A stretch of DNA of 64,000 nt from a virus: the IMG/VR virus record IMGVR_UViG_3300031519_004559. One strand, 5' to 3'. A program made the translations under genes and the position numbers. The notes under the pieces are model-generated. The model did not search any database, was not told the DNA's origin, and saw only the letters and a program-made list of their open reading frames with translations. Shown piece by piece: positions 529 to 15,975 of the stretch. Position 1 is the stretch's first letter. Each line of letters begins with the position of its first letter.

Positions 529-1620
529 TTACCACCCCATTTGCTCCCAAGGTACATCTTTGTCACCAAAGTGTCCGTAAATACAATTCTCGCTATAGTT
601 AGTATAGTTGAAAAGATCAAATCTGTCAATGATTCCTTTTGGTGTTAAATCAATTTCACGCTCAATAAAGTTAGCTATCGAACGATTGTGTCCGTTCGAA
701 TCAATATAAATGCTTGTTGGTTCTTTAATACCAATAGCATAACTTAGTTGTATATTACACCAGTCTGCCATTTCATCTGCTACTACGTTCTTAGCTAACC
801 AACGGGCCATATAAGCTGCACTACGATCTACTTTAGTAGGATCTTTGCCACTAAAAGCACCGCCCCCGTGAGGAGCAAACCCCCCATAAGTATCGACAAT
901 AATCTTTCTCCCAGTAACTCCGGAGTCACCATCAGGACCACCAATAACAAAATTGCCAGTAGGATTAAGATGCCATACAGTATCGCTATCAATTAAGTCT
1001 CCTAACTCTTCTATTGCCGCAAGTTTACATAAATGCCTTGCTTCTTCTACATTGCCTTCAGTGTGCTGTGTACTAATAACAATTTGATCAATGCGTTTAA
1101 TAACACCGTCTCGTCTTGCACCATTGTACTCTACACTTACTTGTGATTTAGCATCCGGACCTAGTATACTACCACGCTTTGTCTTTAAGTTTTTAAGGAT
1201 AGCGTGACTGTAATGAATAGGCGCTGGCATCATGCTAGGTGTATGATTACACGCATAACCAAACATAATACCTTGATCGCCTGCTCCAAAGCTATCTGTG
1301 CCTAGTGCAATGTCTGCACTTTGTTCGTGAATTTCATTATACAACCGTAATTCGTCCCAATGAAATCCATCTTGCTCGTAGCCAATTTCTTTAACTTTGT
1401 TTCGAACAATTTGTTCTACTTCGGCTCTAGTTACATTAAAGTTCTTAACTTCGCCTGCTAGTGTAACCATGTTGGTAGTTACTAGTGTTTCAACTGCTAC
1501 TCGTGTAGTTGTATCGCCTGCGGCTAATCCGGCATCTACAATCGCATCACTAATTTGATCTGCTACTTTATCTGGATGCCCGTCACTAACACTTTCACTT
1601 GTAAAAATATGTTTTTGCAT
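529..1620 (-). CDS. metK: S-adenosylmethionine synthetase
   Basis: FTSESVSDGHPDKVADQISD, GAGDQG, GGGAFSGKDPTKVDRSAAY motifs. Confidence 0.97.
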   Translation of the reverse strand: MQKHIFTSESVSDGHPDKVADQISDAIVDAGLAAGDTTTRVAVETLVTTNMVTLAGEVKNFNVTRAEVEQIVRNKVKEIGYEQDGFHWDELRLYNEIHEQSADIALGTDSFGAGDQGIMFGYACNHTPSMMPAPIHYSHAILKNLKTKRGSILGPDAKSQVSVEYNGARRDGVIKRIDQIVISTQHTEGNVEEARHLCKLAAIEELGDLIDSDTVWHLNPTGNFVIGGPDGDSGVTGRKIIVDTYGGFAPHGGGAFSGKDPTKVDRSAAYMARWLAKNVVADEMADWCNIQLSYAIGIKEPTSIYIDSNGHNRSIANFIEREIDLTPKGIIDRFDLFNYTNYSENCIYGHFGDKDVPWEQMGW

Positions 1621-2033
1621 TATGATACTTCACTCGCTCCGTCAGCCAACGGCTTTACATTAATATATCCTGCACCTCGATCTGTATCCATGCCTTCTTC
1701 TGATAACATGTTATAGACAATGTCTTTGAACCAACGATCGACTACTTCTTCTTCAGGATCGGATTCTGTGCCGTAACCGTGTCTAATTAATTCTACAATA
1801 AAGTATTTGTTCCAGTCAAGTTCAAAAAACCCATTGCGTATATTCTTTTCATTTACTTTCATGTCAAGTACATTAACCCAAGGCATCTTCTTACGTGTTG
1901 CATATGCCTTAGGGTCAGTGCCTTTAACATGTGCTAGTTCTTTTTCTTTTAACTCTTTTTCTTGCTTGTCAATCTTTGCTTGATTAGCTTCTACCTTGTC
2001 TTGCCCTGTTAATTTTTTAATAAAGTTTTTCAT
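1620..2033 (-). CDS. hypothetical phage protein
   Basis: In operon, stop overlaps metK start. Confidence 0.7.
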   Translation of the reverse strand: MKNFIKKLTGQDKVEANQAKIDKQEKELKEKELAHVKGTDPKAYATRKKMPWVNVLDMKVNEKNIRNGFFELDWNKYFIVELIRHGYGTESDPEEEVVDRWFKDIVYNMLSEEGMDTDRGAGYINVKPLADGASEVS

Positions 2034-2129: not shown

Positions 2130-3026
2130 CTAGGTACCCCAGGCATTTCCGAATAAGCTGATGTGTAGTCTAGGGGTGAAGCGCCATCCCTTTTCCATGC
2201 AAACTTCCGCAACTTCTTTAACGTTAAGGACATACTCTTCCGAGCGTCCCCCAAGCGGCATACAATATACTGGACACTCAACGCCGACATCACGATATGC
2301 TTGCACAGCTCGCCCAGCTTCATCAATGTCTGCACGATCAGCAACGACAAATTTAAGATAAAGATCACTGCCATCAACAGTGGAATAGTTAAGAGCGACA
2401 TCAGGCTTAATAGCGTCCATCCAAGATTCTCCGCTAACGGATAGCTTAGGCGAACAACTCCACGTGACAGTAATTCTGTCACTATTGTTGAGATAGTTGT
2501 AGAGGTCATCATGTAATACTTGTGTAGTGTTTGTTTCAAATGTAACATTTTTTAAATCCTTCATACGTGGATGTTCGAACAGTTCTACGTAAAGTCGTTG
2601 CCACGCTAACAACGGCTCACCACCTGTCATAATTAAATGGATATCTTGTCCGTTATCCATTGTCCACTTGCCTTCTGGAGTAAGAGATAGCAAATGCTCA
2701 ACTACTTCTTCAACTTCTGCAAGTTTGTTAAAGTCTTTAAACTCAGGATAGATACTTGCATAAGTGTCACATCCTGTATGGATAATAGGCAAATCTGTAA
2801 ACTTTTCAGTCTTTGCAATAATGCCATCATCTAACAAATCTTTTACTTCTTGATTGTAGCGTTGCCCGCCTGCAAGTTTTTCTGCACGACTAGGTTCATC
2901 TTTACCGAGTCCAAAGTTCATACAACGGAAGTTACAACCGAAGGTACGCAAGAATACACTAGGTACTCCTACAAACTTACCTTCGCCTTGTACGCTGTAG
3001 AACGCTTCACTGTACCGCAACTTCAT
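2130..3026 (-). CDS. queE: 7-carboxy-7-deazaguanine synthase (radical SAM) with long insertion in Cys motif
   Basis: EAFYSVQGEG..G.PSVFLRTFGCNFRC...GCDT, TGGEP, ETN, SPKL, RLH motifs; adjacent to folE. Confidence 0.92.
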   Translation of the reverse strand: MKLRYSEAFYSVQGEGKFVGVPSVFLRTFGCNFRCMNFGLGKDEPSRAEKLAGGQRYNQEVKDLLDDGIIAKTEKFTDLPIIHTGCDTYASIYPEFKDFNKLAEVEEVVEHLLSLTPEGKWTMDNGQDIHLIMTGGEPLLAWQRLYVELFEHPRMKDLKNVTFETNTTQVLHDDLYNYLNNSDRITVTWSCSPKLSVSGESWMDAIKPDVALNYSTVDGSDLYLKFVVADRADIDEAGRAVQAYRDVGVECPVYCMPLGGRSEEYVLNVKEVAEVCMEKGWRFTPRLHISLFGNAWGT

Positions 3027-3706
3027 CGTGCAAACTCCTGTTGCAATTTAATGTTGTCAAAGAACTCCTTCTTAGTACCCGGATCATATTTAAAACTACC
3101 TTGTAATACAGTTGTTTGTGTAAGACTGCTAGTTGCCATAATGCCACGGTTCTCACAACAGCCGTGTGTTGCTTGAATATAAACACCTAAGTTTTCTGCA
3201 CCAGTTGCTTTACCAATCTCACGTGCAATGTCATTTGCAAGTTCTTCTTGTAGAGTGCCACGTCGAGCGCACCATTGTGCAATACGTGTGTACTTACTAA
3301 GTCCGATAAGTTTGTCTGCAGCAATAATACCAATATATGCAGTGCCTGTAACAGGCTGGTGATGATGTGAACACATGCTTTTAAGTTCACTACGTACAAC
3401 CAACATTCCGTCATATCGTTCATCACTGTCATTAGGAAATGCTGTTGCACTTGGCATTGGGTCATACCGACCTGACATAATCTCATTAAAGTACATCTTA
3501 GCAAGCCGTCTTGCTGTACCTTCTGAGTTAGGATCGTTGCGTCGATCAATAATTAGTGTATCTAGTACAGTGTTAAAAGCTAGAGTAGCTTCATCAATAA
3601 GATCTTGTTTATCTCCATCTTCTAACACTGCACTAATATTGTCGCCGGCCCAAAAGCGTATATTGTTTACTTCTAGACGTTGTTTAACTACTTCTGATTT
3701 ATTCAT
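3023..3706 (-). CDS. folE: GTP cyclohydrolase I
   Basis: SMCSHHHQP, IGLSKYTR, LQEEL, HGCCENRG motifs. Confidence 0.95.
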   Translation of the reverse strand: MNKSEVVKQRLEVNNIRFWAGDNISAVLEDGDKQDLIDEATLAFNTVLDTLIIDRRNDPNSEGTARRLAKMYFNEIMSGRYDPMPSATAFPNDSDERYDGMLVVRSELKSMCSHHHQPVTGTAYIGIIAADKLIGLSKYTRIAQWCARRGTLQEELANDIAREIGKATGAENLGVYIQATHGCCENRGIMATSSLTQTTVLQGSFKYDPGTKKEFFDNIKLQQEFAR

Positions 3707-3709
3707 TCA

Positions 3710-3741
3710 CTTCTCCGATGTTTAGGCAGGGGATTGCCTGT
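3710..3741 (-). ncRNA. candidate cis-regulatory RNA in folE leader (hairpin / possible SD-pairing pseudoknot)
   Basis: AGGCA-AUCCCC-UGCCU-AAACAUC-GGAGA directly before the start codon. Confidence 0.4.
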
Positions 3742-3752
3742 AATATACTATA

Positions 3753-3781
3753 AGTATACACGTTTATTTAGGTTTTGTCAA
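3753..3781 (-). promoter_or_regulatory. sigma70 promoter TTGACA-N17-TATACT with nested TAAATA late-like motif, upstream of folE
   Basis: Direct sequence; TAAATA at 3765-3770. Confidence 0.8.
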
Positions 3782-3788
3782 CCGTTAA

Positions 3789-3983
3789 CTAAAATAATTT
3801 TAGCATTTCTAAACGGTCATTTGCTTCTGCCATTTTATCAAGTTCTGTTTGAATAGCCTCCATCACATCACTGTGTTCACCAATACCGGCTGGGTTAGTT
3901 AAGTACACTTCGACATTTGCTTTGTGCAATGCAATAGCGCCTTCGGCATGTTTCTGTGCCGCTTCAATCATCATGTTACGCAT
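3789..3983 (-). CDS. small hypothetical protein (MRNMMIEAAQKHAEG...)
   Basis: Likely true start overlaps HIT stop. Confidence 0.7.
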   Translation of the reverse strand: MRNMMIEAAQKHAEGAIALHKANVEVYLTNPAGIGEHSDVMEAIQTELDKMAEANDRLEMLKLF

Positions 3984-4356
3984 GATAGTTTCCTTTCTCT
4001 GGGATAACGTGACGTACCCCGCCACGGGGGTCTTCTGTATCACCGTCTCTTCTAAAGATAAGGTGTACGTGGGGATACATGCAAGTCTGACCTGCACTCT
4101 CTCCCATATTAAGGCCAATGTTATAGCCTGTAATATCATTGTTTGCTGCTACTTTATTTTGATCGCCCATAGCAACAGCAAATTTAAAACATTTCATTAG
4201 CTCTTCTTGTGTCACTTGTTTAGGTACTATAAGAGTATGTCCTTGTGTAACCGGATATGCATCTTCGTACACTACAAAGTCTCTAGTATCGTATGTTACA
4301 TTGGTCCACGGCGCTCGCCCGTCCGCTTGTGCCTTAGCTAGAGTATCAATACTCAC
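3976..4356 (-). CDS. HIT family nucleotide hydrolase
   Basis: DAYPVTQGHTLIVPK and AGQTCMYPHVHLI histidine-triad region. Confidence 0.9.
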   Translation of the reverse strand: MSIDTLAKAQADGRAPWTNVTYDTRDFVVYEDAYPVTQGHTLIVPKQVTQEELMKCFKFAVAMGDQNKVAANNDITGYNIGLNMGESAGQTCMYPHVHLIFRRDGDTEDPRGGVRHVIPEKGNYHA

Positions 4357-4888
4357 CTACATTCTCCCATGGGTAAACTAACCAAACATCTTCTTCAGCT
4401 TTGTTGATTTCGTGACAAGTATAACTAACAGGAACTTCGGCATTACTTGCACCATTATCTGTTAGTGTCGCAAAGCGAACATTGTTGCCCCATACTGCAT
4501 TCCATCGATCATGCTCCATTGGCATACAGCCCGATGGCCAGTCTTCTTTGATCCAATTGAAAGTAGCACCAGTATCGTTGATATCATCTACAATAAGGAT
4601 GTTCTTACTCAATGGAGGGAAGCCTTCCTCTCCTTTAGGTTCGTAACCAAATGCATCTTCTGCCATCCATAAGTTGCTTTCGCTTTCACTGTCATCGTCT
4701 CGTAGACTAACTTTAAGTGCTTCGCAACGTATGCCAGTCATATTACTAATAATAGTAGCAGGTACATTACCACCGCGTGTAAGTCCTACAATGTAATCAG
4801 GACGCCAGTTGTCTGTATACATTTGATTAACAATGCTTACACACATACGTTCAATGTCAGTCCAGCTGTAATAATGTTTCTTAATCAT
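4346..4888 (-). CDS. type I purine phosphoribosyltransferase (Gpt-like)
   Basis: IVGLTRGG, ILIVDDINDTGAT PRPP-binding loop, WLVYPWE C-terminus. Confidence 0.88.
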   Translation of the reverse strand: MIKKHYYSWTDIERMCVSIVNQMYTDNWRPDYIVGLTRGGNVPATIISNMTGIRCEALKVSLRDDDSESESNLWMAEDAFGYEPKGEEGFPPLSKNILIVDDINDTGATFNWIKEDWPSGCMPMEHDRWNAVWGNNVRFATLTDNGASNAEVPVSYTCHEINKAEEDVWLVYPWENVGEY

Positions 4889-4897
4889 AGTTAGTCC

Positions 4898-5050
4898 TTA
4901 GTTAATTATATCAGGGGTTATTAAATCTACAGTGTTTACGACTGTCTTGCCTGCATATATTGCAGTTGTTGCAGTTACGTCTACAATCGCTGCTGTTGTG
5001 GAACAGCCTGTTAGAAGGAACAGTATAAGAAAAGCGTTTACTTTAATCAT
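4898..5050 (-). CDS. 50-aa lipoprotein (not in ORF track)
   Basis: MIKVNAFLILFLLTGCSTTAAIVDV...; signal peptide with LTGC lipobox. Confidence 0.7.
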   Translation of the reverse strand: MIKVNAFLILFLLTGCSTTAAIVDVTATTAIYAGKTVVNTVDLITPDIIN

Positions 5051-5235
5051 TTTCCCGCCTTTGAGTCTTTCTCTGCTTTAGTTAGTTTTTGATTCCAGCT
5101 ACTATTGCTAATACCAAGTTCGCTGGGCATAGGCTTTGTTTTGCCTTTAGTAATTTCTCCACCTTTGGCAAGAAACTCTGCCTTCATTCGTTCTAGTTCA
5201 TCATCTTTAGGTTTTGCATCGTGATTCATTGGCAT
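5047..5235 (-). CDS. hypothetical protein
   Basis: Fits operon packing. Confidence 0.65.
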   Translation of the reverse strand: MPMNHDAKPKDDELERMKAEFLAKGGEITKGKTKPMPSELGISNSSWNQKLTKAEKDSKAGK

Positions 5236-5247
5236 GCGCAGTATTCC

Positions 5248-5469
5248 TTATTTGTATTTGTTAAATGCCGCAATTCTGTCTGCACGAGTATATCCTCGAT
5301 CAAGTGCATAAGGATCAATATTTAATTTAGCTGCTATGTCGGTTGCTTCTTTTAAAGAACGACACGTACTAACTAAAATGTCTCTAGCTAATAGTACCTT
5401 CCATCTTGGATTTTGTTTAGTATCTGTTGTTTCTACTACTGTGTAGTCGGTGTGTATTCTTTTAGCCAT
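5248..5469 (-). CDS. hypothetical protein
   Basis: SD AAGGA, operon packing. Confidence 0.6.
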   Translation of the reverse strand: MAKRIHTDYTVVETTDTKQNPRWKVLLARDILVSTCRSLKEATDIAAKLNIDPYALDRGYTRADRIAAFNKYK

Positions 5470-5520
5470 TAAAACATTCCTTGTTTATTAAAACGAGACG
5501 CTATTGCCTTCGTAGTTGCC

Positions 5521-6576
5521 TTACTCATTAGATATTGCCTCATAAAGTGCGCTACCGCTAAAAAACTCTTTGTTAAGTTTAGTAACTTGCTTGTTAATAT
5601 TTGGAAGTAGATCATCATAGTTTTCCATATAGTTTACAATTTGTGCGACTATTTTGTCTTTATGATGCAAGTATGCGTCATAGTTCTCAGTCCACTCACT
5701 AGGGTATTTAAATATGTCTAACCCCATTTCACTGTAACTTAGACGATCAGGTACCATAGGAATAGCATCAACTAATGCGCCTTCATACCAGCTAATGCCA
5801 AGTGTTTCTTGTAGGTTAGCACTAAACACCATCTTAGCTTCGCCTAACAAGTTATGATATTCGTTTTTAGTAAGTTGGTAATCTTGACAAACAACAAACT
5901 CGTATTGCGGCAACCGCTCTGCAAGATCTCTAAAGATTTCAACTTGCTTTTCAGGTGCAACTCTATGTGGAAATAAGATCAAGTCTCGTTTTGTCATACC
6001 TTTATAACTATCTAAACTGCTACGCAAGTACTCCATAGGCCAGCCAACTCTTATTGCTTTGTCCATATCAACATTATAATTATCCATCATTGTATCTGTA
6101 AATAAATCAATATGGAATTCACTTGCAAAGAAGTTGTCATCATAGCATTCGTACATTGACATTTCAGCATGTCTAACCCACGGCTTGTCACCTATTAGTC
6201 TACCCAAGAAGTCTTGTGGATCGTAACTACCAGCATGCCACATGCCGCCAATACGAATGTCAACACCTAGTAACTCTGCCATATACTTTAATTGTATAAC
6301 AGTAGGGTTCCAAGCATCTGTGTATAAAAAGTAGTCACCGTCCTTAACTTCTCCGTTAGCAAATATCCTGCTAATCTCTAACATTTGTTGGGATTTATAA
6401 TTATTAGTTCCTGCAAAGTTAAGAAATGCCCCAGGCGTTGTAGCCTGAGGTACTTCTCCGCCACTAATTACAGTGACGTCTTCGTTTGTAGCTCGTTGCA
6501 GTTGTTTAGGAAGATACTCTTTCCATTGCTTAGTATAGCGTGAGTCAACTGCTTCAATGTCTACAATATAAATCAA
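5521..6576 (-). CDS. GT-B fold (GT4-like) glycosyltransferase; probable TTG start overlapping upstream TGA
   Basis: FPHRVAPEKQ and ANLQETLGISWYEG (E-x7-E) nucleotide-sugar-binding motifs. Confidence 0.75.
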   Translation of the reverse strand: MIYIVDIEAVDSRYTKQWKEYLPKQLQRATNEDVTVISGGEVPQATTPGAFLNFAGTNNYKSQQMLEISRIFANGEVKDGDYFLYTDAWNPTVIQLKYMAELLGVDIRIGGMWHAGSYDPQDFLGRLIGDKPWVRHAEMSMYECYDDNFFASEFHIDLFTDTMMDNYNVDMDKAIRVGWPMEYLRSSLDSYKGMTKRDLILFPHRVAPEKQVEIFRDLAERLPQYEFVVCQDYQLTKNEYHNLLGEAKMVFSANLQETLGISWYEGALVDAIPMVPDRLSYSEMGLDIFKYPSEWTENYDAYLHHKDKIVAQIVNYMENYDDLLPNINKQVTKLNKEFFSGSALYEAISNE

Positions 6577-6767
6577 TTTCCGTTCCTTGCCCGACGTTGT
6601 TGCCGACCTTGGTATTTTTGCCAAGAAAGATAACTTTCCCAGATTCGATCGCCTTTCTTATAAAGACTCTTTTCGTCATACGGTTTAGCTTCGAACCTAC
6701 AGTAGTCTTTAAACTTATCTAGGTCATCAAATACTTTATTGTATGCTTCCCGATTGAAGTTAGCCAT
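6573..6767 (-). CDS. hypothetical protein
   Basis: SD AAGGAA before MANFNREAY. Confidence 0.65.
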   Translation of the reverse strand: MANFNREAYNKVFDDLDKFKDYCRFEAKPYDEKSLYKKGDRIWESYLSWQKYQGRQQRRARNGN

Positions 6768-6787
6768 TTTATGTTCCTTTAATAGCA

Positions 6788-7237
6788 TTAGTTTTTAGGA
6801 TAAAAAATTGAACAGCCGTTTTCGCCATCTTCGGCGACATCAATTTCTACAAACCGGCTTGGGTATTTTGTAGAAATTTCTTGGTACAAATCATCTGCGA
6901 TCATCTCACATGACTTGTGATTCAGTTGTATTACATCTTGTGCATACAACCGTTCCATCCAGCGTTTAAACTGAATAAACTCAATATCGCGATCGTTGTG
7001 AAACACTTCGATGCGAACTTTAAAGTGGAAAATATGACGATGCGGAATGCCTAGGAATGATACATCATCCCATTCGCCTGTTGCTAGTTTAGGATCAGTG
7101 TCTGCGCCTGGGTACATATGTACACCTTCTTTACGAAAGGTAACCCATACACTTCTGCTTGCTTGTTGTGTTGTCATTTTATCGTCTTCTTCTCTTGTTC
7201 TACGTAGCATATAATCATAATAAGCTTCATTTGTCAT
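6788..7237 (-). CDS. dpdL: QueD-paralog T-fold protein, DpdL-like (candidate CDG decarboxylase)
   Basis: LGIPHRHIF fits the LxxxHRHxF motif recalled for DpdL; DIEF, SCEMIA, EDGENG T-fold motifs; context of dpdA/folE/queE. Confidence 0.65.
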   Translation of the reverse strand: MTNEAYYDYMLRRTREEDDKMTTQQASRSVWVTFRKEGVHMYPGADTDPKLATGEWDDVSFLGIPHRHIFHFKVRIEVFHNDRDIEFIQFKRWMERLYAQDVIQLNHKSCEMIADDLYQEISTKYPSRFVEIDVAEDGENGCSIFYPKN

Positions 7238-7243
7238 AGTACT

Positions 7244-7272
7244 AGTATACTTTCATTTGATTACTTTGTCAA
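7244..7272 (-). promoter_or_regulatory. sigma70 promoter TTGACA-N17-TATACT upstream of dpdL-like gene
   Basis: Direct sequence. Confidence 0.75.
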
Positions 7273-7774
7273 GGCCATAATTGTTCCAATCCGTAAATTT
7301 ATTACGGTCCATCAACTCATGCAGGCTATGGCACCAAACACCTGGATTAGTTGCTTTAAAATCTTTATCGTCAATTTTAATCATTGTGTTGTAGTTCCAC
7401 TGTTTAACATAAGGAACCACAACACGAAGTTGCGGAATAAAGTTATCTACCTCAGTTAGACCGCCGTCTAAGAACCATTCAAGGTTAATAGTACTTGGAA
7501 TGTCTAAACTGCATAAGATACCTTGATCTGTAAACGCACGGATCATTAGATCCCAGTCTTCAAACTCATCTGAAGTAACTGGCTTATAACTGTGATTAGC
7601 ACCAAAGAAGATATGTTCGCACTGTTCTTCTTTGTAGAACTTCATTATCTCGTTGTAGTCCTGTGTGCCAGTAACAAACAATGTCTTCATTCCAAACGCA
7701 GGAGTCTTTTCAACTTCTACACCTGTAAAGAAGATGATGTCGTTTGCTTCGCCTGTGTCGTAATCACGTTTCAT
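7253..7774 (-). CDS. hypothetical protein in the deazaguanine cluster
   Basis: Located between dpdA and dpdL; globular, enzyme-like composition. Confidence 0.75.
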   Translation of the reverse strand: MKRDYDTGEANDIIFFTGVEVEKTPAFGMKTLFVTGTQDYNEIMKFYKEEQCEHIFFGANHSYKPVTSDEFEDWDLMIRAFTDQGILCSLDIPSTINLEWFLDGGLTEVDNFIPQLRVVVPYVKQWNYNTMIKIDDKDFKATNPGVWCHSLHELMDRNKFTDWNNYGLDKVIK

Positions 7775-7931
7775 TTTTTAATTGATCCTTAATTGCCAGT
7801 TTTTCTTTTTTTAATTGCTGTACTTCCATTTCATTAGCACGTTCTTTTTCAGACTTTTCTATTACACCGTGTAAATGTTCGTGCATCTTTTTAAGTCTTT
7901 CTAAGTTTTTCTTTTTAGGACGCAAAGCCAT
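7764..7931 (-). CDS. small coiled-coil protein (DUF465/YdcH-like)
   Basis: H..L...I......QQLKKEKLAIKDQL pattern. Confidence 0.55.
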   Translation of the reverse strand: MALRPKKKNLERLKKMHEHLHGVIEKSEKERANEMEVQQLKKEKLAIKDQLKNET

Positions 7932-7932
7932 T

Positions 7933-9492
7933 TTATATCTCCTCGAATAAATTGCCAAAGGTGGTACTAGCATTCACAGTCTTCTTACCAATAGCACCAC
8001 GTGTTCCTGGAATGGCCATCCAAAACTTTGAATAACTATCAATAACCTTCATAGACTCTTCTCGAGTTGTCTTTGAAAAAATCTCTTCAACAACATCTCT
8101 AAATAGAATACGATCAAACTTTTCGTCTACAAGCATCTTAGGTATAACGCCTGCATCGTACTGTCTATTAGCTTCTTGTACAGCATTAATGTGTGTCCAT
8201 ACGTTATGGCCCATCTGAATAGCATAACTAAAGCTATCCCAGCTCGTTGAGTCCCTGCCACGTACAGTTGTGTTACCATCTGCATCTAGCAAAGGATTAC
8301 CTTCTTTGTCTAAGTCAACATCGCCTTTGAGTACTTTAATAGTACCAATTTTATTAGTATCACCGACTGAATACGTGCAAATATCGTTAACTAATAATCC
8401 GTCAGTTAATGGACTATCTTCAAATGTATTAAAGATACCGTCTTGTAGTGTAGCGTCTTTAAATCCTCGAGTGTCAGTTGCATACTTTAGTTCGTCCACA
8501 CTAGGCACCATTCGATAGGTCCATTTACCTCTATCAGGTGTTTCAACTGATGTATATACTTGTCCATTAGCAGTTGCTAAAAATGGACTAGCACAGTCAA
8601 ATGTAAGCATCATAGTAGGGTTATAGTACTTACGTACAGCTCGTTGTACGTCTGTAAGTAACGTAGCCCATTCTAGCTTAGATGTGCCTAAGAAGTGCAT
8701 TACATCGTGTATACCGCTTTGTAGTAGTCCATCATAGTGCAATGAAACTATACGTTTAAGAACCAAATGCACATCGCACATATTCTGACCACCCATTGAC
8801 CACCCATTAAAGTGATTGTCTGGATATTTGACTGGATCGCAATAGTCTTTCATTTGCTCATACCAGTCATCGGCGTCTGCATGATTCTCACCTTGCAATA
8901 CGTTAAGGAACTTACAAGCACCTGTTCTATGCTTCATCCAATAGTCATTGTTAATACGTGTTGCTTTCACAGCTTCTTGATATGTACTAATACCAGTTGC
9001 CTTTGCACCTGCTGGTGAACGTGCAACCCAAGCTGGAATATCAAGTATCATACCATAGTCCATGTAAGCATCCATCCAACGCAAAACACTATCACGTTTT
9101 TGCTGTGCTTTAGGACAATTAGGATCTTTCCAATCGCCTTCCCAAACACCTTTACCAATTTGAAAACCACCACTATCGCCTAGTGCCCAAGTATTATCAC
9201 GATCTCTATTACGGATCATATCTTCCTTAGGGCTAAACTTAGTAGTGTCTAATTCAGCATGTCCTGCAGAGTAAAGCGTCCACTTGTATGTAAATGCTCC
9301 TTCTTTGGAGTTAAGATAGTTAAGACTTTCCATGCCATTTGCAAAGTTTTTAGGCATACGATCATCAGAAACATACGGACCAGTTACAGGATCAGGATAA
9401 CGTTGCTTGCCCACATAAGTTGCATAGAAGCCACTAAGTGCAGGTAAGAAATGTGCGTAATCTTGTTGCGCTTCTGTAAGGTCTTTATTCAT
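7933..9492 (-). CDS. dpdA: DpdA-like DNA 7-deazaguanine transglycosylase (TGT fold)
   Basis: DSGGFQ, MILDIP, NVLQG, HFLG, TFDCASP TGT motifs; no typical tRNA-TGT Zn-binding tail; context. Confidence 0.8.
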   Translation of the reverse strand: MNKDLTEAQQDYAHFLPALSGFYATYVGKQRYPDPVTGPYVSDDRMPKNFANGMESLNYLNSKEGAFTYKWTLYSAGHAELDTTKFSPKEDMIRNRDRDNTWALGDSGGFQIGKGVWEGDWKDPNCPKAQQKRDSVLRWMDAYMDYGMILDIPAWVARSPAGAKATGISTYQEAVKATRINNDYWMKHRTGACKFLNVLQGENHADADDWYEQMKDYCDPVKYPDNHFNGWSMGGQNMCDVHLVLKRIVSLHYDGLLQSGIHDVMHFLGTSKLEWATLLTDVQRAVRKYYNPTMMLTFDCASPFLATANGQVYTSVETPDRGKWTYRMVPSVDELKYATDTRGFKDATLQDGIFNTFEDSPLTDGLLVNDICTYSVGDTNKIGTIKVLKGDVDLDKEGNPLLDADGNTTVRGRDSTSWDSFSYAIQMGHNVWTHINAVQEANRQYDAGVIPKMLVDEKFDRILFRDVVEEIFSKTTREESMKVIDSYSKFWMAIPGTRGAIGKKTVNASTTFGNLFEEI

Positions 9493-10226
9493 TACTTACT
9501 CTGCGCTGGAAGAATATAATTGTATGTAGCTAAACCACTGTTAACTGTAATTTGCATAGCACCTTGATCACTAATGCTCATTGTAATATCACCACCAAGA
9601 CTTAAAATTGACTGTGTTTGTGCTACAGGCCAAGCCCAAGTATGCGACAACGAACCTTCTATATTAGACTGGAATACAAACTCGCCTGCGTGTGTGCTTT
9701 GATCACCGAAGCTAAACACAAGATCAGTTGCATCGCCTGTTTTTACAGTTTTTACGTTAAACGTAGGTTCTTCGGAATGTGCTGCACTTTGCAGTTTCAT
9801 TCTTGTAATACTAGCAACATGCGGATTAAATGTTACGTCCCAGCTTGCACCTTTAAATTTAACACTTTTAAGTTTTTCATCAATAATTTGCTGATTCATA
9901 AAACGGTAATCGTTTTGGAAATCGCCTGCTGCATTTTCAAAGTGAATATGCGTAGGAATAGTTTCGCCATTGCGTTCTGCTTGCACAACATCGATCTTAG
10001 CATCTTTCTGATACTCTGGATTCTTCAAGTGCAATGCTAACTTATCTAAGTTAGGCATACCAAATGTACCAGATGCAACATTAGAAGTTGTTTCTGCTGT
10101 AAGTATCACTGACCGATCCTCGGCCATTGATTCAAATGTAGTAGTTTCGCCACCCGTTACTTTAACTAAGCTGAGGAATCCCAGCGAGTGTGTTTTTGCG
10201 ACTACGTCTTGTAAGATGTCTTTCAT
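9492..10226 (-). CDS. DNA polymerase sliding clamp (gp45-like)
   Basis: About 244 aa, beta-rich, ends ..YNYILPAQSK; near polB. Confidence 0.7.
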   Translation of the reverse strand: MKDILQDVVAKTHSLGFLSLVKVTGGETTTFESMAEDRSVILTAETTSNVASGTFGMPNLDKLALHLKNPEYQKDAKIDVVQAERNGETIPTHIHFENAAGDFQNDYRFMNQQIIDEKLKSVKFKGASWDVTFNPHVASITRMKLQSAAHSEEPTFNVKTVKTGDATDLVFSFGDQSTHAGEFVFQSNIEGSLSHTWAWPVAQTQSILSLGGDITMSISDQGAMQITVNSGLATYNYILPAQSK

Positions 10227-10227
10227 G

Positions 10228-10980
10228 TTATTCTCCTATGTTAAGTTTTATTATATTATCTTTATGACCGTTTGTCAAGTACTTTTCTATATTATATTTA
10301 GGTTTAAAGCCCAAAGTCTTAATTTTTTCCATGTTCGCACAAGTCCATTGTCGTTCATGTGGTGTATTTAGGCGGATAGGCAAGTTGTCTGCAAAATCAC
10401 GGATCTTATATGGAGTACCCGTGCCTATATCAATAGTGCCTGTATACGTGCTTTTCATACAAAGCTCAATAGCATCGCATAAATCTTCAATGTGTATAAA
10501 GTCTCTATAGTGATCTGTTACATATTCTAGTCCACCATTAAATAGTTTGTCAAAGAACATGCCTTTGCGTGGAGTGTCTGAATAAACGGTATGAAACCGC
10601 ATGCCTAGTGTATCAGCATAACGTTCAGCAGCTTCTTCGACTATGTACTTAGACGCCGCATAAGGGTTCAAATCGGGCTCGTAAGCACTGGAACTGCTTG
10701 CGTATAGTATACGTGTATCTCTGTAGCGTTCAAACAGACGCTTGCTTGCTTCAACATTGTTACGCCAATAGCCTGCAGGATCGTTTGTACTTTCTCGAAC
10801 TCCACTTTTGCCTGCTAGATGTATAATTAAATCAAACTCTTCTGAAAACTCTACATCACATAAGTCAAGTCCGTCTTGTAGGTCAATACCAACTACTACT
10901 CTGTCTTTTGTTTCTAATAGTCTGTTTAGTAAATGTGTACCAATAAATCCTTTATGGCCTGTTAATAATATTCTATGCAT
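10228..10980 (-). CDS. NAD-dependent nucleotide-sugar epimerase/dehydratase
   Basis: TGHKGFIG, HLAG, ASSSS, YAASK, RDFIHIED. Confidence 0.92.
   Translation of the reverse strand: MHRILLTGHKGFIGTHLLNRLLETKDRVVVGIDLQDGLDLCDVEFSEEFDLIIHLAGKSGVRESTNDPAGYWRNNVEASKRLFERYRDTRILYASSSSAYEPDLNPYAASKYIVEEAAERYADTLGMRFHTVYSDTPRKGMFFDKLFNGGLEYVTDHYRDFIHIEDLCDAIELCMKSTYTGTIDIGTGTPYKIRDFADNLPIRLNTPHERQWTCANMEKIKTLGFKPKYNIEKYLTNGHKDNIIKLNIGE
10250..10278 (-). promoter_or_regulatory. sigma70 promoter TTGACA-N17-TATAAT driving clamp-dpdA
   Basis: Direct sequence. Confidence 0.8.
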
Positions 10981-11377
10981 TAACTCGATTCCTTAAATCA
11001 CTTGAACTGAAACGGTGGTCTCTTTTGTTAAAGTGTAATTCGATGTCACGCTTGCGGCAAATGTCTTTACCTGTGAAATCTTTGTCGCGATACTCTTCTC
11101 CTAGTATGCGTACTTCTATTGGATACATACTAAGGATATCTTCTAAGTCTTCTTCAGTTCCGTACGGAATAATTTCATCTACATACTCTACACCTTTTAG
11201 TTGAGTATAGCGTTCAACTACTGTTTGTATGGGTGCGTTCTTGTCTTTGCGATCAACACTAGGGTCTACCTGTAATCCGCAAATTAAATAATCGCATTGT
11301 TCTTTTGCTTCACGCAACATAATTACGTGTCCAGCATGTAATAAATCAAACGTGCTACAAGTAAATCCTACTTTCAA
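10973..11377 (-). CDS. cytidylyltransferase (TagD/RfaE-like)
   Basis: FDLLHAGH, RFSSSDLR. Confidence 0.9.
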   Translation of the reverse strand: MKVGFTCSTFDLLHAGHVIMLREAKEQCDYLICGLQVDPSVDRKDKNAPIQTVVERYTQLKGVEYVDEIIPYGTEEDLEDILSMYPIEVRILGEEYRDKDFTGKDICRKRDIELHFNKRDHRFSSSDLRNRVNA

Positions 11378-11703
11378 TGTTCTCTCCTTCCATCAAATAC
11401 ACAAATAAACTTTAAACCAACGTCTGTGTTGTTGTGTACTCTGTGAAATACGTTGTCGTGGATTAGTACAGTGTCGCCTGCTGTAACATCAAATATTTTA
11501 TGATCAAGCTCCATCTGTCCACTACCGCCTACAAAGACATAGACTTCTTCTTGCCCGGCATGCCGGTGACCTGTTGTACTTTTACCTGCATTTAAATGCG
11601 TACTACTCACTACAAGGTTGCTTAGATCAGTATTGTCTTTAACAACATAACGTGCATCTTCTTTAACAACCTTGCCGCCAATATCCCAATCACTGTATTT
11701 CAA
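11374..11703 (-). CDS. cupin-domain protein (sugar isomerase-like); probable TTG start
   Basis: HRH...EEVYVF...G.G...FHRVHN cupin motifs. Confidence 0.8.
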   Translation of the reverse strand: MKYSDWDIGGKVVKEDARYVVKDNTDLSNLVVSSTHLNAGKSTTGHRHAGQEEVYVFVGGSGQMELDHKIFDVTAGDTVLIHDNVFHRVHNNTDVGLKFICVFDGRREH

Positions 11704-12416
11704 TTTGCTATCCCCCTTTGTTGGAAATTTTCTAAAATTTCTTTTGTGTCTCTCCAACTTTTAACTTGTTTTGCAACACCGCCTGCTTCTTTTACAGCAT
11801 ATGCAAGACTAAAATCGTTGCCGTCTGGGTCCATTCTATCGCCAAAGAAGAATACTCTATCTTTTTGTATTTCCTGCAGCACTTGACGCTTGTCTTTACC
11901 TTTAGCAATAATGTCAATACCGGTTTCGCCACCAACCACTGCACTTACATTAGGAAAATGTTTGTTGATCCTTTCAGCAATGTGTATGCGTTCGTCGGCT
12001 TCTATGTCATAGTAAAAGTAATCTTTGCGTTGTACTTTATCTGCATTACGCCCCACAACACTAAAGTTAACCATGCCCGGCCGTTCTTCTAAATGCTTGC
12101 CGGTTTTAATTGTGTATTCACTATTTTTAAGTTCAGCATTAAGAAATTCTTTAAGTTCGTCGGTCATCTTCCAAGGATTAGTGTAAACATTCTCTTGTCG
12201 ATACCATACATCGTTGCCGTTGCAATTATAAATCTTGTTTACACTCATACAAATTTCAGGACCAATCTGTTCAAGCGTTTTAGGGTTATCACTTCCTGTA
12301 ACTAAACTTACTGTATTGTTTTGCGAAAAATATAAAAACCACAATGCAAATTGAGGATTTATTTTCTTCCTACTAGGGGTAAGTGTGCCGTCAACATCAA
12401 ATATAAAATGATTCAT
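11700..12416 (-). CDS. HAD IIB phosphomannomutase-like
   Basis: FDVDGTLT, VTGSD, ERPGMVNFS, GGETGID, FFGD...GND. Confidence 0.88.
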   Translation of the reverse strand: MNHFIFDVDGTLTPSRKKINPQFALWFLYFSQNNTVSLVTGSDNPKTLEQIGPEICMSVNKIYNCNGNDVWYRQENVYTNPWKMTDELKEFLNAELKNSEYTIKTGKHLEERPGMVNFSVVGRNADKVQRKDYFYYDIEADERIHIAERINKHFPNVSAVVGGETGIDIIAKGKDKRQVLQEIQKDRVFFFGDRMDPDGNDFSLAYAVKEAGGVAKQVKSWRDTKEILENFQQRGIAN

Positions 12417-12417
12417 T

Positions 12418-15087: not shown

Positions 15088-15160
15088 GTATTCTCCTTCG
15101 TTGCTTATGGCCAACTTAACCTTCTACATGCCTAGCTAATAGCTATTGGCGTATTATTAA

Positions 15161-15699: not shown

Positions 15700-15723
15700 A
15701 AGTTTCTCCTTTAATTTATATAC

Positions 15724-15752
15724 ATTGTACAGGATTTATTGTTGTTTGTCAA
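15724..15752 (-). promoter_or_regulatory. sigma70 promoter TTGACA-N17-TACAAT
   Basis: Direct sequence. Confidence 0.75.
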
Positions 15753-15933: not shown

Positions 15934-15975
15934 CACGTATTTAGACCTTATACTATAGGCAATCGTAATTGTTGG

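What the first reader, a model, noticed from the sequence alone, without database searches (positions are those of the whole stretch)
2130..12416. 7-deazaguanine DNA-modification pathway interleaved with a glycosyltransferase and an NDP-sugar pathway: candidate glycosylated deazapurine base
Seen: queE, folE, a DpdL-like T-fold protein (LxxxHRHxF), a DpdA-like TGT, a GT-B glycosyltransferase two genes after dpdL, and epimerase + cytidylyltransferase + cupin + phosphomannomutase, all in the polB/clamp region. queD lies at 58.3 kb, and no queC or queF is in the window. Established: FolE-QueD-QueE make CDG, DpdA swaps guanine in DNA for a 7-deazaguanine, DpdL (recalled from Cellulophaga phage phiST) yields 7-deazaguanine, and GT-B enzymes such as T4 AGT/BGT glycosylate phage DNA. 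Inference: this phage inserts CDG/DG and may add a phage-made sugar, a hypermodification I do not know to be described.
Basis: partly seen in the sequence, partly recalled or inferred. Interest (0 to 1): 0.85.

Follow-up and report, generated by a model that had tools for sequence, protein, structure and literature searches.

The report
Sugar transferase inside phage deazaguanine genes
This marine giant phage carries the genes that swap guanine in its DNA for a 7-deazaguanine, and a sugar-adding enzyme travels with those genes in hundreds of phages and some bacteria, which predicts an undescribed sugar-bearing purine in DNA that has not been shown chemically.

Summary
All the named genes are real and lie on the minus strand. 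From polB to the glycosyltransferase (GT), 13 genes run with no gap above 16 nt.

- **Base-exchange enzyme.** The 519-aa "DpdA-like" protein matches no Pfam or PHROG model. Its AlphaFold model (pLDDT 92) has a tRNA-guanine-transglycosylase fold (Z 19.6), with invariant DSGGFQ and FDC aspartates.
- **DpdL.** The 149-aa protein is a true DpdL homologue, with the LxxxHRHxF motif.
- **GT.** It is a GT4-type GT-B enzyme with an EX7E motif.
- **QueC/QueF.** Neither was found in complete relatives, and the window has no QueC PP-loop motif.
- **Co-occurrence.** In cultured phages, all 17 records with a full-length GT homologue also carry DpdL. Of 80 viral contigs found through a second GT subtype alone, 78 have DpdL beside it. 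The GT–DpdL–transglycosylase trio also sits in Magnetospirillum and Methylobacterium chromosomes.
- **Sugar genes.** The nucleotidyltransferase and the SDR sugar epimerase/dehydratase-family gene (SDR) stay inside the cluster through rearrangements. The PMM and cupin genes are variable.

A glycosylation step therefore belongs to this pathway. The acceptor, the sugar, and whether the sugar ends up in DNA are all untested. I found no paper describing such a base.

This scan has flagged the same module before on other DNA: 456 notes in at least 314 genomes, and the follow-ups shown reached the same verdict.

The parts
12418..15114 (-). Family B DNA polymerase. It heads the gene string, and its C-terminal tail ends ..NTFSSLFDFGE.
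   Evidence: PF00136 E 3e-35 and PF03104 E 1.2e-18. Tail printed.
11700..12434 (-). Phosphomannomutase-family HAD-IIB enzyme; inferred sugar-6-P to sugar-1-P mutase. Its start overlaps the end of polB; the true start is uncertain.
   Evidence: PF03332 E 2.1e-24. TIGR01484 HAD-IIB matched above its cut-off. Detected in 94 of 156 related loci, at only 45-53% identity in most.
11374..11757 (-). Small cupin, possibly a phosphosugar isomerase of the mannose-6-P isomerase type.
   Evidence: PF07883 E 9.3e-12; PF01050 E 1.8e-5. Detected in only 37 of 156 related loci.
10973..11377 (-). Cytidylyltransferase-like nucleotidyltransferase; inferred to make an NDP-sugar from a sugar-1-phosphate.
   Evidence: PF01467 E 2.4e-14. 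Best NCBIfam match is RfaE domain II, E 2.5e-19, below its cut-off. It stays inside the deazaguanine cluster at different positions in other lineages.
10228..10980 (-). Short-chain dehydrogenase/epimerase-family gene (SDR) for NDP-sugars, 250 aa.
   Evidence: PF01370 E 3.8e-24. Partial GalE and heptose-epimerase matches, below cut-offs. An SDR is detected in 63 of 80 loci of GT subtype 2 and lies directly downstream of the GT in most of the eight gene orders printed.
9492..10226 (-). gp45-type sliding clamp.
   Evidence: No Pfam match. PHROG 12062. 31% identical to the Phosso protein annotated as a sliding clamp. ESM Atlas features score 0.94-0.95 to sliding-clamp clusters that carry PF09116.
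7933..9492 (-). TGT-fold, DpdA-like base-exchange enzyme of a lineage I call TGT_A. Inferred to swap guanine in DNA for the deazaguanine. It has a disordered linker and then the tail ..TTFGNLFEEI.
   Evidence: AF2 pLDDT 92.3. All top 50 Foldseek matches in the PDB are tRNA-guanine transglycosylases. VIA Z 19.6, rmsd 4.3 over 304 residues, to 2ash. Invariant D106-S-G-G, Q111, D151 and D299 in 76 sequences. 36% identical to the PA5oct protein. Tail printed.
7764..7973 (-). Small DUF465 protein; not conserved in relatives.
   Evidence: PF04325 E 2.2e-6. Found in only 5 of 156 related loci.
7253..7774 (-). Conserved 173-aa protein of unknown function (p173) that travels with the TGT-fold gene.
   Evidence: Found in 146 of 156 related loci. 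Homologues in PA5oct and ACP17. Invariant E20, E22, H54, K133, D135, D136. No family, PDB or hhalign match.
6788..7237 (-). DpdL, the T-fold paralogue of QueD predicted in the literature to decarboxylate CDG.
   Evidence: Motif LGIPHRHIF. 32% identity, E 1e-8, to phiST CGPG_00067. All 19 invariant columns of the 14-sequence alignment, which includes phiST, are shared. Weak hhalign link to QueD, E 4.7e-5.
6573..6788 (-). Small 71-aa protein between dpdL and the GT. Its stop overlaps the likely GT start (TTGA).
   Evidence: Found in 140 of 156 related loci. Overlap read.
5521..6576 (-). GT4-type GT-B glycosyltransferase of the retaining type, with an EX7E motif. The acceptor is unknown; I infer the deazaguanine base.
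   Evidence: AF2 pLDDT 86.4. VIA Z 24.0 to sucrose-phosphate synthase, 22.5 to BshA and 17.3 to T4 alpha-glucosyltransferase. Foldseek results. E256 and E264 are invariant. X1 and BCSR5 homologues pass PF00534. Co-occurrence.
4346..4888 (-). Type I purine phosphoribosyltransferase, XGPRT-like.
   Evidence: PF00156 E 1.4e-9. PRK09177 E 5e-12, below cut-off. It stays inside the cluster in many lineages.
3976..4356 (-). HIT-family nucleotide hydrolase or transferase.
   Evidence: PF01230 E 6.1e-9. PHROG 19494. Lies beside the PRTase in several other lineages.
3023..3706 (-). GTP cyclohydrolase I (FolE).
   Evidence: PF01227 E 1.6e-37. 64% identical to Phosso FolE.
2130..3026 (-). Radical-SAM 7-carboxy-7-deazaguanine synthase (QueE).
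   Evidence: PHROG 2076 E 2e-48. Partial hits to NCBIfam QueE models.
1620..2033 (-). 137-aa protein that follows queE here and also in PA5oct, Phosso and G005.
   Evidence: blastp at 34-36% identity to PA5oct gp324 and Phosso gp235. Also found in G005.
529..1620 (-). S-adenosylmethionine synthetase (MetK); context only.
   Evidence: PF02773, PF00438 and PF02772. Detected in only 9 related loci.
58325..58774 (-). QueD (PTPS family) of the phage CxxxHGY type, distant from the cluster.
   Evidence: PF01242 E 4.9e-14. 48% identical to phiST QueD.

Best explanation
The region is a QueC-less 7-deazaguanine DNA-modification module with a built-in glycosylation step.

**Shown by homology or predicted fold**
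- FolE, QueD and QueE make 7-carboxy-7-deazaguanine (CDG) from GTP.
- A DpdL homologue is present.
- A TGT-fold enzyme keeps both catalytic-type aspartate motifs.
- A GT4-type retaining glycosyltransferase lies two genes after dpdL.

**Inferred**
- DpdL turns CDG into 7-deazaguanine, as proposed for phage phiST.
- The TGT-fold enzyme is recruited to the gp45 clamp through a polymerase-like C-terminal tail and exchanges guanine in newly made DNA for the deazapurine.
- The GT then adds a sugar to that base, on DNA or on the free base before insertion. The donor would be an NDP-sugar that the phage can partly make itself: cupin isomerase, then PMM-type mutase, then nucleotidyltransferase, then SDR epimerase, giving an NDP-mannose- or NDP-heptose-like donor.
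- The XGPRT-like PRTase probably salvages the released guanine.

The expected benefit is protection of the phage DNA from restriction and other DNA-targeting defences.
For: **Gene identities:**

**TGT fold**
- AF2 pLDDT 92.3.
- All top 50 Foldseek matches in the PDB are TGTs.
- VIA Z 19.6 over 304 residues.
- DSGGFQ and FDC are invariant in 76 homologues.

**DNA as the target**
- The gene string polB, sugar genes, clamp, TGT-fold, p173, dpdL, p71, GT has no gap above 16 nt.
- The TGT-fold tail ..TTFGNLFEEI resembles the PolB tail ..NTFSSLFDFGE. Similar LF tails recur in homologues and in the unrelated ACP17 and X1 transglycosylases.
- The clamp identity is supported.
- PA5oct has the same TGT-fold, GT, DpdL and QueE genes. 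It resists restriction enzymes in a pattern its authors read as a modified G (PMC12191111).

**GT belongs to the module**
- All 17 phage-database records with a full-length GT homologue have DpdL, usually within 0-3 kb. This holds across three different transglycosylase lineages.
- BUCT-ZZ01 adds a second GT subtype next to DpdL.
- Among 79 DpdL-anchored viral contigs, almost all with enough flank have a GT 0.2-4 kb away.
- Of 80 contigs anchored on the GT alone, 78 have DpdL.
- In the complete genome G005 the cluster is split, and the GT stays with FolE, NTase, PRT, HIT and QueE.
- Chromosomes of Magnetospirillum and Methylobacterium isolates carry the GT, DpdL and TGT-fold genes side by side; in Magnetospirillum GT and DpdL are 3 bp apart and in Methylobacterium 18-30 bp.

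**Sugar link:** the NTase and SDR move about within the cluster in different lineages.

**No QueC or QueF:**

**Chemical precedent:** the GT HuiG puts GlcNAc on the 2-amino group of a 7-deazaguanine free base (PMC7439116).
Against: - There is no chemical evidence at all.
- 7-Deazaguanine has no hydroxyl. The acceptor atom would have to be N2, O6, C7, or the carboxylate of CDG, and retaining GT4 enzymes usually make O-glycosides.
- The GT's closest structural neighbours act on small molecules or glycans (BshA, MshA, sucrose-phosphate synthase). T4 alpha-glucosyltransferase ranks lower.
- The GT has no clamp-type tail.
- phiST has DpdL but no GT, and its DNA contains plain dDG (PMC10516641). The GT is therefore an add-on, not a requirement.
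- DpdL activity has never been reconstituted.
- PMM and cupin are variable among close relatives.
- The genome has a separate 27-32 kb glycan island that could use the same sugars.
Confidence: 0.55

Rival explanations
1. The GT glycosylates the free 7-deazaguanine base or a pathway intermediate, as a small-molecule step. The sugar either rides into DNA on the inserted base, or it is a transient handle (for solubility, protection or activation) that is removed, so the final DNA carries plain dDG.
For: The GT's best structural matches are small-molecule GT4 enzymes: BshA, MshA and a pterin glucosyltransferase. HuiG glycosylates a free 7-deazaguanine base. The GT lacks a clamp tail. When the cluster is split in G005, the GT stays with the biosynthesis genes rather than with the transglycosylase. 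Co-expressing ACP17 dpdL and dpdA alone gave no dDG in E. coli, so a missing step is possible.
Against: A sugar on N2 would clash with the way canonical TGTs bind the 2-amino group (my own knowledge of TGT structures, not tested here). No glycosidase that would remove a transient sugar was identified. phiST makes dDG without any GT.
Confidence: 0.2
2. The deazaguanine module makes plain dDG or dCDG DNA. The GT and the sugar genes serve another target, such as virion protein or host envelope glycosylation, or the phage's separate glycan island, and sit here only through inherited gene order.
For: The phage has a 27-32 kb glycan island elsewhere. PMM and cupin are variable. GT4 enzymes have very diverse acceptors. 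A BshA-like phage GT unrelated to deazaguanine genes exists in PhiXhv-12.
Against: GT-DpdL adjacency survives rearrangement, replacement of the transglycosylase lineage, and transfer into bacterial chromosomes that lack virion genes. No full-length homologue of this GT was found in a cultured phage lacking DpdL.
Confidence: 0.1
3. The modified base enters DNA before replication. The PRTase would make the deazaguanine ribonucleotide. The nucleotidyltransferase and HIT enzymes would process nucleotides rather than sugars. The polymerase would then incorporate the analogue.
For: The PRTase, HIT and nucleotidyltransferase stay inside the cluster in many lineages. In toyocamycin-type pathways a PRTase attaches ribose phosphate to a deazapurine (my own knowledge).
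Against: A transglycosylase with intact catalytic motifs is nearly always present (77 of 80 loci). The published view is that every known deazaguanine DNA modification is post-replicative. No kinase or reductase specific for such a nucleotide was identified here.
Confidence: 0.08

Closest known systems
DpdL/DpdA3 system of Cellulophaga phage phiST, which gives 2'-deoxy-7-deazaguanosine (NAR 2023, PMC10516641)
   Same: FolE, a CxxxHGY-type QueD (48% identical), QueE and a DpdL with the LxxxHRHxF motif are present. There is no QueC. A TGT-fold enzyme lies next to the replication genes.
   Different: The transglycosylase here is 519 aa and has no detectable sequence similarity to the 259-aa DpdA3. 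phiST has no GT, p173, PRTase, HIT or sugar-nucleotide genes.
Wroclawvirus PA5oct and relatives (Pseudomonas jumbo phages)
   Same: They share the same TGT-fold lineage (36% identity), GT (44%), DpdL (58%), QueE, clamp, p137 and p173, and the order PolB, clamp, TGT-fold, GT, DpdL. A modified G is suspected from restriction resistance (PMC12191111).
   Different: PA5oct has no sugar-nucleotide cassette between polB and the clamp, and its GT directly follows the transglycosylase. The chemistry of its base is unpublished in the library searched.
T4 alpha- and beta-glucosyltransferases acting on 5-hydroxymethylcytosine DNA
   Same: A phage GT-B enzyme sits in a DNA-modification setting. The fold similarity to T4 alpha-glucosyltransferase is Z 17.3. 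The logic is the same: a first modification, then a sugar.
   Different: There is no sequence similarity. GT4 enzymes match better (Z 20-24). The closest complete relative has an ordinary ThyA-strength thymidylate-synthase match, and no hydroxymethylase was looked for beyond that. The acceptor would be a purine analogue with no hydroxymethyl group.
HuiG of the huimycin pathway, and the dapiramicins (PMC7439116)
   Same: A glycosyltransferase sits next to FolE, QueD and QueE homologues and puts a sugar on a 7-deazaguanine, at its 2-amino group. A later preprint lists PF13439 (GT4) glycosyltransferases for that cluster family.
   Different: That system makes a bacterial secondary metabolite. The acceptor is a free, O-methylated preQ0 base, and there is no transglycosylase and no DNA. 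HuiG was not compared with this GT here.
Bacterial Dpd system (dpdA-K) that places preQ0 and ADG in DNA
   Same: A transglycosylase-based exchange of guanine in DNA. The bacterial islands found here pair the module with a nuclease.
   Different: Dpd uses QueC-derived preQ0 and DpdB/DpdC. It has no DpdL and no GT (my own knowledge).

Membership tests
DpdA / TGT superfamily (DNA or tRNA guanine transglycosylase) | TGT-type TIM-barrel fold | tested here: met
   AF2 pLDDT 92.3. All top 50 Foldseek matches in the PDB are TGTs, E about 5e-6. VIA Z 19.6, rmsd 4.3, 304 residues aligned out of 361.
DpdA / TGT superfamily (DNA or tRNA guanine transglycosylase) | Two catalytic aspartates, one in a DSGGFQ-type motif and one in an FDC-type motif | tested here: met
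   D106 within GDSGGFQ and D299 within TFDCASP are invariant in 76 homologues. Their equivalence to Z. mobilis D102 and D280 rests on motif identity recalled from memory, not on a residue-level superposition.
DpdA / TGT superfamily (DNA or tRNA guanine transglycosylase) | Match to Pfam PF01702 or another curated TGT model | tested here: not met
   No Pfam, NCBIfam or PHROG hit. An HMM built from 76 homologues finds no TGT in the PDB by sequence. Published DpdA3 and DpdA4 were likewise found only with HHpred.
DpdA / TGT superfamily (DNA or tRNA guanine transglycosylase) | Structural zinc site (CxCxxC...H) | tested here: inconclusive
   There is no CxCxxC in the window, PA5oct or Phosso proteins. 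The BCSR5 enzyme has CNCPIC. I do not know whether the zinc site is required in the phage subfamilies.
DpdA / TGT superfamily (DNA or tRNA guanine transglycosylase) | Acts on DNA and inserts a 7-deazaguanine | not testable with these tools
   Only indirect support: its position between the clamp and dpdL, the polymerase-like LF tail, and the restriction resistance of PA5oct.
DpdA3 subfamily (phiST CGPG_00065) | Sequence similarity to phiST DpdA3 | tested here: not met
   No blast or tblastn hit. There is only a weak structural match to phiST M4SLA5 in BFVD, E 3.6e-3. I treat the window's enzyme as a separate lineage.
DpdL | LxxxHRHxF motif in place of QueD's CxxxHGH | tested here: met
   LGIPHRHIF at 7028-7054. 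Motif definition taken from PMC10516641.
DpdL | Homology to phiST CGPG_00067, with the shared His, Glu and SCE positions | tested here: met
   tblastn 32% identity, E 1e-8. There are 19 invariant columns across 14 sequences, including phiST.
DpdL | Genomic context: FolE, QueD, QueE and a transglycosylase present, QueC absent | tested here: met
   No PP-loop motif in the window. No QueC in the complete relative G002. The window's own genome could not be searched.
DpdL | CDG decarboxylase activity | not testable with these tools
   The activity is only predicted in the literature, and the reconstitution attempt failed.
GT4-type GT-B glycosyltransferase | GT-B two-Rossmann fold | tested here: met
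   AF2 pLDDT 86.4. VIA Z 24.0, 22.5 and 21.8 to GT4/GT5 enzymes across the whole length. Foldseek results.
GT4-type GT-B glycosyltransferase | EX7E motif of retaining GT4 enzymes | tested here: met
   QETLGISWYEG, with E256 and E264 invariant in 13 sequences.
GT4-type GT-B glycosyltransferase | Match to Pfam Glycos_transf_1 (PF00534) | tested here: inconclusive
   The window protein has no hit at E 0.01. Its homologues in X1 and BCSR5 pass the cut-off at 45.5 and 42 bits, and ACP17 and PA5oct are sub-threshold.
T4-type DNA glucosyltransferases (AGT/BGT) | Specific relationship to AGT/BGT and an hmC acceptor pathway | tested here: inconclusive
   AGT appears at Z 17.3, below about 34 other GT-B entries. 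There is no sequence similarity. The only hmC-related test was a thymidylate-synthase-family search of relatives, which found a ThyA-strength hit in G002.
NDP-sugar supply pathway (mannose or heptose type) | Isomerase, mutase, nucleotidyltransferase and epimerase all present and assignable to one sugar | tested here: inconclusive
   All four folds are present, but every equivalog-level match falls below its cut-off. The sugar cannot be named.

The most novel reading that the evidence does not exclude
A large and abundant group of aquatic T4-like and jumbo phages, the cultured phages PA5oct, ACP17, X1, BUDD, BCSR5, Phosso and BUCT-ZZ01, and islands in Magnetospirillum and Methylobacterium replace guanine in DNA with a sugar-bearing 7-deazaguanine. 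This would be the first glycosylated purine analogue reported in any DNA. It would be installed by a clamp-tethered transglycosylase and a GT4 enzyme. In the bacteria the module would be paired with a nuclease, acting as a restriction-modification-like system.
Probability: 0.4. Interest if true: 0.9.

Novelty: new variant of a known kind. Interest (0 to 1): 0.78.

Why it matters
Every natural sugar-bearing DNA base I know of is a pyrimidine derivative (my own knowledge): glucosyl- and arabinosyl-hmC, and base J. Known 7-deazaguanine DNA bases carry only small groups.

A glycosylated deazapurine would be a new class of DNA hypermodification. It would probably be invisible to, or block, many restriction enzymes and other DNA-targeting defences and tools.

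The module is very common. The TGT-fold family alone has 933 clusters at 50% identity and more than 7,600 close hits in metagenomes. The modification could therefore affect how marine viral DNA is sequenced and amplified.

It is directly testable, because several cultured phages and bacterial strains carry the module. It may also explain why dpdL plus dpdA from ACP17 gave no product in E. coli: the neighbouring GT and p173 were left out of that experiment.

Tried and rejected
- **Near-identical DNA in the phage database:** none found.
- **The window's own genome:** not held. The nearest record is a 14.9-kb fragment with no match.
- **Single-sequence and profile HMM searches of the PDB.** For the TGT-fold protein, GT, DpdL, p173 and the clamp these gave only chance hits. 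Fold prediction was needed for the two I could model.
- **p173.**
  - ESM Atlas gave only weak hits (0.80-0.85) to glycoside-hydrolase fragments, which I do not trust.
  - hhalign against the Phosso 'glycosylase' at the same position was negative.
- **Fusion proteins.** None of the long TGT-fold homologues is fused to DpdL, the GT or p173.
- **Single-protein searches of viral contigs.** The ACP17 and PA5oct GTs found only ACP17 itself.
- **Mixed GT alignment.** It was too divergent to be used as a search query.
- **PhiXhv/Ep-type Xanthomonas and Erwinia phage GTs.** The one examined (PhiXhv-12) is a BshA-like enzyme next to GlmS and a deacetylase, not part of this system; the other four records gave the same partial match.
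- **Pterin-glycoside reading.** A pterin glucosyltransferase is among the structural matches. I considered the idea and set it aside because QueE and a transglycosylase are always present.
- **Supplementary tables of the phiST paper:** not held.
- **Overall count of sigma-70-like sites:** not above chance, 50 found against 46.6 expected.

Full report
**What is in the window**

All genes of the finding lie on the minus strand, and I list them in transcription order.

| Coordinates | Gene | Basis |
|---|---|---|
| 15114-12418 | polB | |
| 12434-11700 | PMM-family HAD-IIB enzyme | |
| 11757-11374 | cupin | |
| 11377-10973 | cytidylyltransferase-like nucleotidyltransferase | |
| 10980-10228 | SDR epimerase-family gene | |
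| 10226-9492 | gp45-type clamp | |
| 9492-7933 | 519-aa TGT-fold protein | |
| 7973-7764 | DUF465 | |
| 7774-7253 | 173-aa unknown protein (p173) | |
| 7237-6788 | DpdL | |
| 6788-6573 | 71-aa protein (p71) | |
| 6576-5521 | glycosyltransferase (GT) | |

From polB to the GT no gap exceeds 16 nt, and most neighbours overlap (coordinates). Two small ORFs follow the GT. After them come:
- an XGPRT-like PRTase (4888-4346);
- a HIT protein (4356-3976);
- FolE (3706-3023);
- QueE (3026-2130);
- a 137-aa protein;
- MetK.

QueD lies far away, at 58325-58774.

Near-perfect sigma-70-type sites sit just upstream of the clamp, dpdL and folE. The overall count of such sites is not above chance, so I treat them only as candidate early promoters.

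**The base-exchange enzyme**

The 519-aa protein matches no Pfam, NCBIfam or PHROG model. A profile built from 76 homologues finds no TGT in the PDB by sequence. The family is nevertheless large: 933 representatives at 50% clustering and more than 7,600 close hits.

With that alignment AlphaFold gives a confident model, pLDDT 92.3.
- All 50 best Foldseek matches in the PDB are tRNA-guanine or archaeosine transglycosylases.
- VIA-align gives Z 19.6, rmsd 4.3 Å over 304 residues, to Thermotoga TGT.
- Among predicted viral structures it matches phage TGT/DpdA-like proteins.
- The invariant residues include D106-S-G-G with Q111, D151, and D299 within TFDC. From memory, these match the DSGGFQ and MFDC motifs that hold the catalytic aspartates of bacterial TGT.
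- There is no CxCxxC zinc motif.

I conclude that it works like a DpdA and belongs to the TGT superfamily by fold. It is a lineage separate from DpdA3: it has no similarity to phiST CGPG_00065.

Weak blastp links (E about 1e-6) connect this family to the ACP17 enzyme that the phiST paper treats as a dpdA.

**DNA rather than tRNA as the target**

- The gene sits between the clamp and dpdL in the replication module.
- The model ends in a low-confidence linker followed by a short helix.
- The tail ..TTFGNLFEEI resembles the polymerase tail ..NTFSSLFDFGE. LF-type tails recur in many homologues and in the unrelated ACP17 and X1 transglycosylases.
- The 244-aa neighbour is a gp45-type clamp by ESM Atlas features: 0.94-0.95 to clusters carrying PF09116, with 193-199 shared features.
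- PA5oct has the same TGT-fold, GT, DpdL and QueE genes. It resists several restriction enzymes in a pattern its authors read as a modified G of unknown chemistry (PMC12191111).

Clamp tethering is an inference.

**DpdL and the upstream pathway**

- The 149-aa protein carries LGIPHRHIF, the LxxxHRHxF signature defined for DpdL.
- It is 32% identical (E 1e-8) to phiST CGPG_00067.
- It shares all 19 invariant columns in an alignment of 14 sequences.
- hhalign links the DpdL and QueD families only weakly.
- QueD is of the same CxxxHGY phage type as in phiST, at 48% identity.
- No QueC PP-loop motif occurs in the window.
- The closest complete relative genome (G002, 357.6 kb; its transglycosylase is 80% identical) has no QueC or QueF match. 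G002 also has an ordinary ThyA-strength hit.

The pathway should therefore stop at CDG, with DpdL acting on it. DpdL's decarboxylase role is a published prediction that was never reconstituted.

**The glycosyltransferase**

- *Start codon.* Homologues carry stop codons in the first 10-30 codons of the long frame. A TTG preceded by AAGGA overlaps the p71 stop. The gene therefore most likely starts at 6576 and encodes 351 aa.
- *Fold.* The model (pLDDT 86.4) is a GT-B fold. It is closest to GT4/GT5 enzymes:

| Structural match | Z |
|---|---|
| sucrose-phosphate synthase | 24.0 |
| BshA | 22.5 |
| glycogen synthase | 21.8 |
| T4 alpha-glucosyltransferase | 17.3 |

  
- *Motif.* An EX7E motif is invariant.
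- *Pfam.* The window protein escapes Pfam, but its X1 and BCSR5 homologues pass PF00534.

It is therefore a genuine, probably retaining, NDP-sugar transferase. The fold does not reveal the acceptor.

**Does the GT belong to the deazaguanine module?**

*Cultured phages.*
- All 17 records with a full-length GT homologue also have DpdL. They are eleven PA5oct-like records, Phosso, ACP17 (two records), X1, BUDD and BCSR5.
- In five of those six lineages gene maps show the GT lying among FolE, QueE, DpdL and the transglycosylase; for BUDD only GT and DpdL coordinates were seen, about 1.5 kb apart.
- Three different transglycosylase lineages are involved, and all carry DSGG[FL]Q.
- A second GT subtype, about 24% identical, lies 19 nt from DpdL in Synechococcus phage BUCT-ZZ01.
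- DpdL occurs without a detectable GT in phiST and its relatives, RHph_I1_18, Ahp1, Bakedbeans, D479 and MA9V-3.
- The only GT-like hits outside the DpdL set are partial matches in five PhiXhv/Ep-type phage records; the one examined, PhiXhv-12, is a BshA-like enzyme next to GlmS.

*Viral contigs.*
- In 156 loci of the window's own clade, the core of TGT-fold, p173, DpdL, p71 and GT is essentially constant.
- Among 79 more diverse DpdL-anchored loci, a GT lies 0.2-4 kb away in almost all that have enough flank.
- One apparent exception is L202. It belongs to a complete genome (G005) whose GT sits elsewhere, directly beside FolE, NTase, PRT, HIT and QueE.
- In the reverse test, anchored only on GT subtype 2, 78 of 80 loci have DpdL and 77 have the TGT-fold gene. 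One of the two exceptions is cut off at the contig end.

*Bacterial genomes.*
- Several hits are binned metagenome-assembled contigs that carry the phage-type PolB-clamp cluster.
- Chromosomal contigs of Magnetospirillum and Methylobacterium isolates carry the GT, DpdL and TGT-fold genes side by side. In Magnetospirillum GT and DpdL are 3 bp apart and in Methylobacterium 18-30 bp. There is no polB or clamp.
- In M. aberrantis the trio sits with a QueD, a CoiA-like nuclease, a HEPN protein and an integrase.

**The sugar genes**

The four folds would suffice to take a ketose phosphate to an epimerised NDP-sugar: isomerase, mutase, nucleotidyltransferase, epimerase. Every equivalog-level match falls below its cut-off. 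The best nucleotidyltransferase match is the heptose-1-phosphate adenylyltransferase domain. The sugar could therefore be of the mannose or the heptose type.

Among relatives, PMM and cupin are variable. The nucleotidyltransferase and the SDR behave differently.
- They move about yet stay embedded in the cluster. Examples are FolE-NTase-QueD, p173-NTase-DpdL, GT-NTase-FolE and GT-SDR-FolE.
- An SDR is detected in 63 of 80 subtype-2 loci and directly follows the GT in most of the gene orders printed.

I therefore rate the link between the GT and the NTase/SDR pair as likely. The link to PMM and cupin is open, because the phage also has a separate glycan island.

**Mechanism, and what is shown versus inferred**

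*Shown (by homology or predicted fold):* the identities, folds and motifs of the proteins, and the conserved linkage of the genes.

*Inferred:*
- CDG is converted to DG by DpdL.
- The transglycosylase exchanges the base on DNA at the clamp.
- The base is glycosylated.
- The PRTase salvages the released guanine.

*The weakest point is the acceptor atom.* DG has no hydroxyl. A chemical precedent exists: in huimycin and the dapiramicins a sugar sits on the 2-amino group of a 7-deazaguanine, placed there by the GT HuiG acting on a free base (PMC7439116). A later preprint lists PF13439 glycosyltransferases for that cluster family.

That precedent, together with the small-molecule enzymes among the GT's closest structural matches, keeps the rival open that the GT acts before insertion.

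**Novelty**

- Searches of the held literature for glycosylated deazaguanine in DNA found nothing.
- The only DpdL paper does not mention a glycosyltransferase.
- This same scan has flagged the module many times on other DNA, and the follow-ups shown reached the same verdict.
- The present window adds three things: a complete four-gene sugar cassette inside the polB-clamp string, the polymerase-like tail on the transglycosylase, and an independent confirmation of the bacterial islands.

Noticed in passing
window 7933-7990 and 12418-12460 (C-terminal ends of the TGT-fold protein and PolB): Both proteins end in a similar tail, ..TTFGNLFEEI and ..NTFSSLFDFGE. LF tails recur in many homologues and in the unrelated ACP17 and X1 transglycosylases. 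This suggests a shared clamp-binding peptide.
   Followed up: partly
window 7253-7774: p173 is a conserved 173-aa protein with invariant acidic, His and Lys residues. It accompanies the TGT-fold gene in 146 of 156 related loci and has homologues in PA5oct and ACP17. It matches no family, PDB sequence or trusted Atlas cluster.
   Followed up: partly
L356 (Magnetospirillum aberrantis SpK) 3096-16340; also L349, L350, L355, L359 (Methylobacterium) and L365 (M. sulfuroxidans): Bacterial chromosomes carry the GT, DpdL and TGT-fold genes side by side, without replication genes. In L356 the trio sits with a QueD, a CoiA-like nuclease, a LA2681-type HEPN protein, a two-component system and an integrase. 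This looks like a mobile modification-plus-nuclease island.
   Followed up: partly
L254 (G005, complete 328-kb phage) 9483-17821, compared with L202: The module is split in two about 29 kb apart. PolB, SDR, clamp, TGT-fold, p173 and DpdL are in one place. GT, FolE, NTase, PRT, HIT, QueE and p137 are in the other.
   Followed up: yes
window 10250-10278, 7244-7272, 3753-3781 (minus strand): Near-perfect TTGACA-N17-TATAAT sites (11-12 of 12 positions) lie just upstream of the clamp, dpdL and folE. They may be early promoters that divide the string into three units.
   Followed up: no
L164 (Xanthomonas phage PhiXhv-12) 4705-7939: A different phage sugar system: GlmS, a BshB-like deacetylase and a BshA-like GT in a row, with no deazaguanine genes nearby.
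   Followed up: no
L159 5341-6953 and L160 5200-7038 (phages X1 and BCSR5); also L186: In this lineage a PAPS-reductase-family (PP-loop) protein and two further conserved unknown proteins sit directly upstream of the GT. This hints at a different elaboration of the base.
   Followed up: no
L001 7915-8661 (PA5oct gp314): The PA5oct homologue of the clamp is annotated as a virion structural protein from mass spectrometry, which is odd for a sliding clamp.
   Followed up: no
window 56057-57127: A UvdE-type UV-damage endonuclease (PF03851, E 1.9e-36) lies near QueD.
   Followed up: no
window 529-1620: A phage MetK (SAM synthetase) closes the string after QueE. It was detected in only 9 related loci, so it is not a fixed part of the module.
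   Followed up: partly
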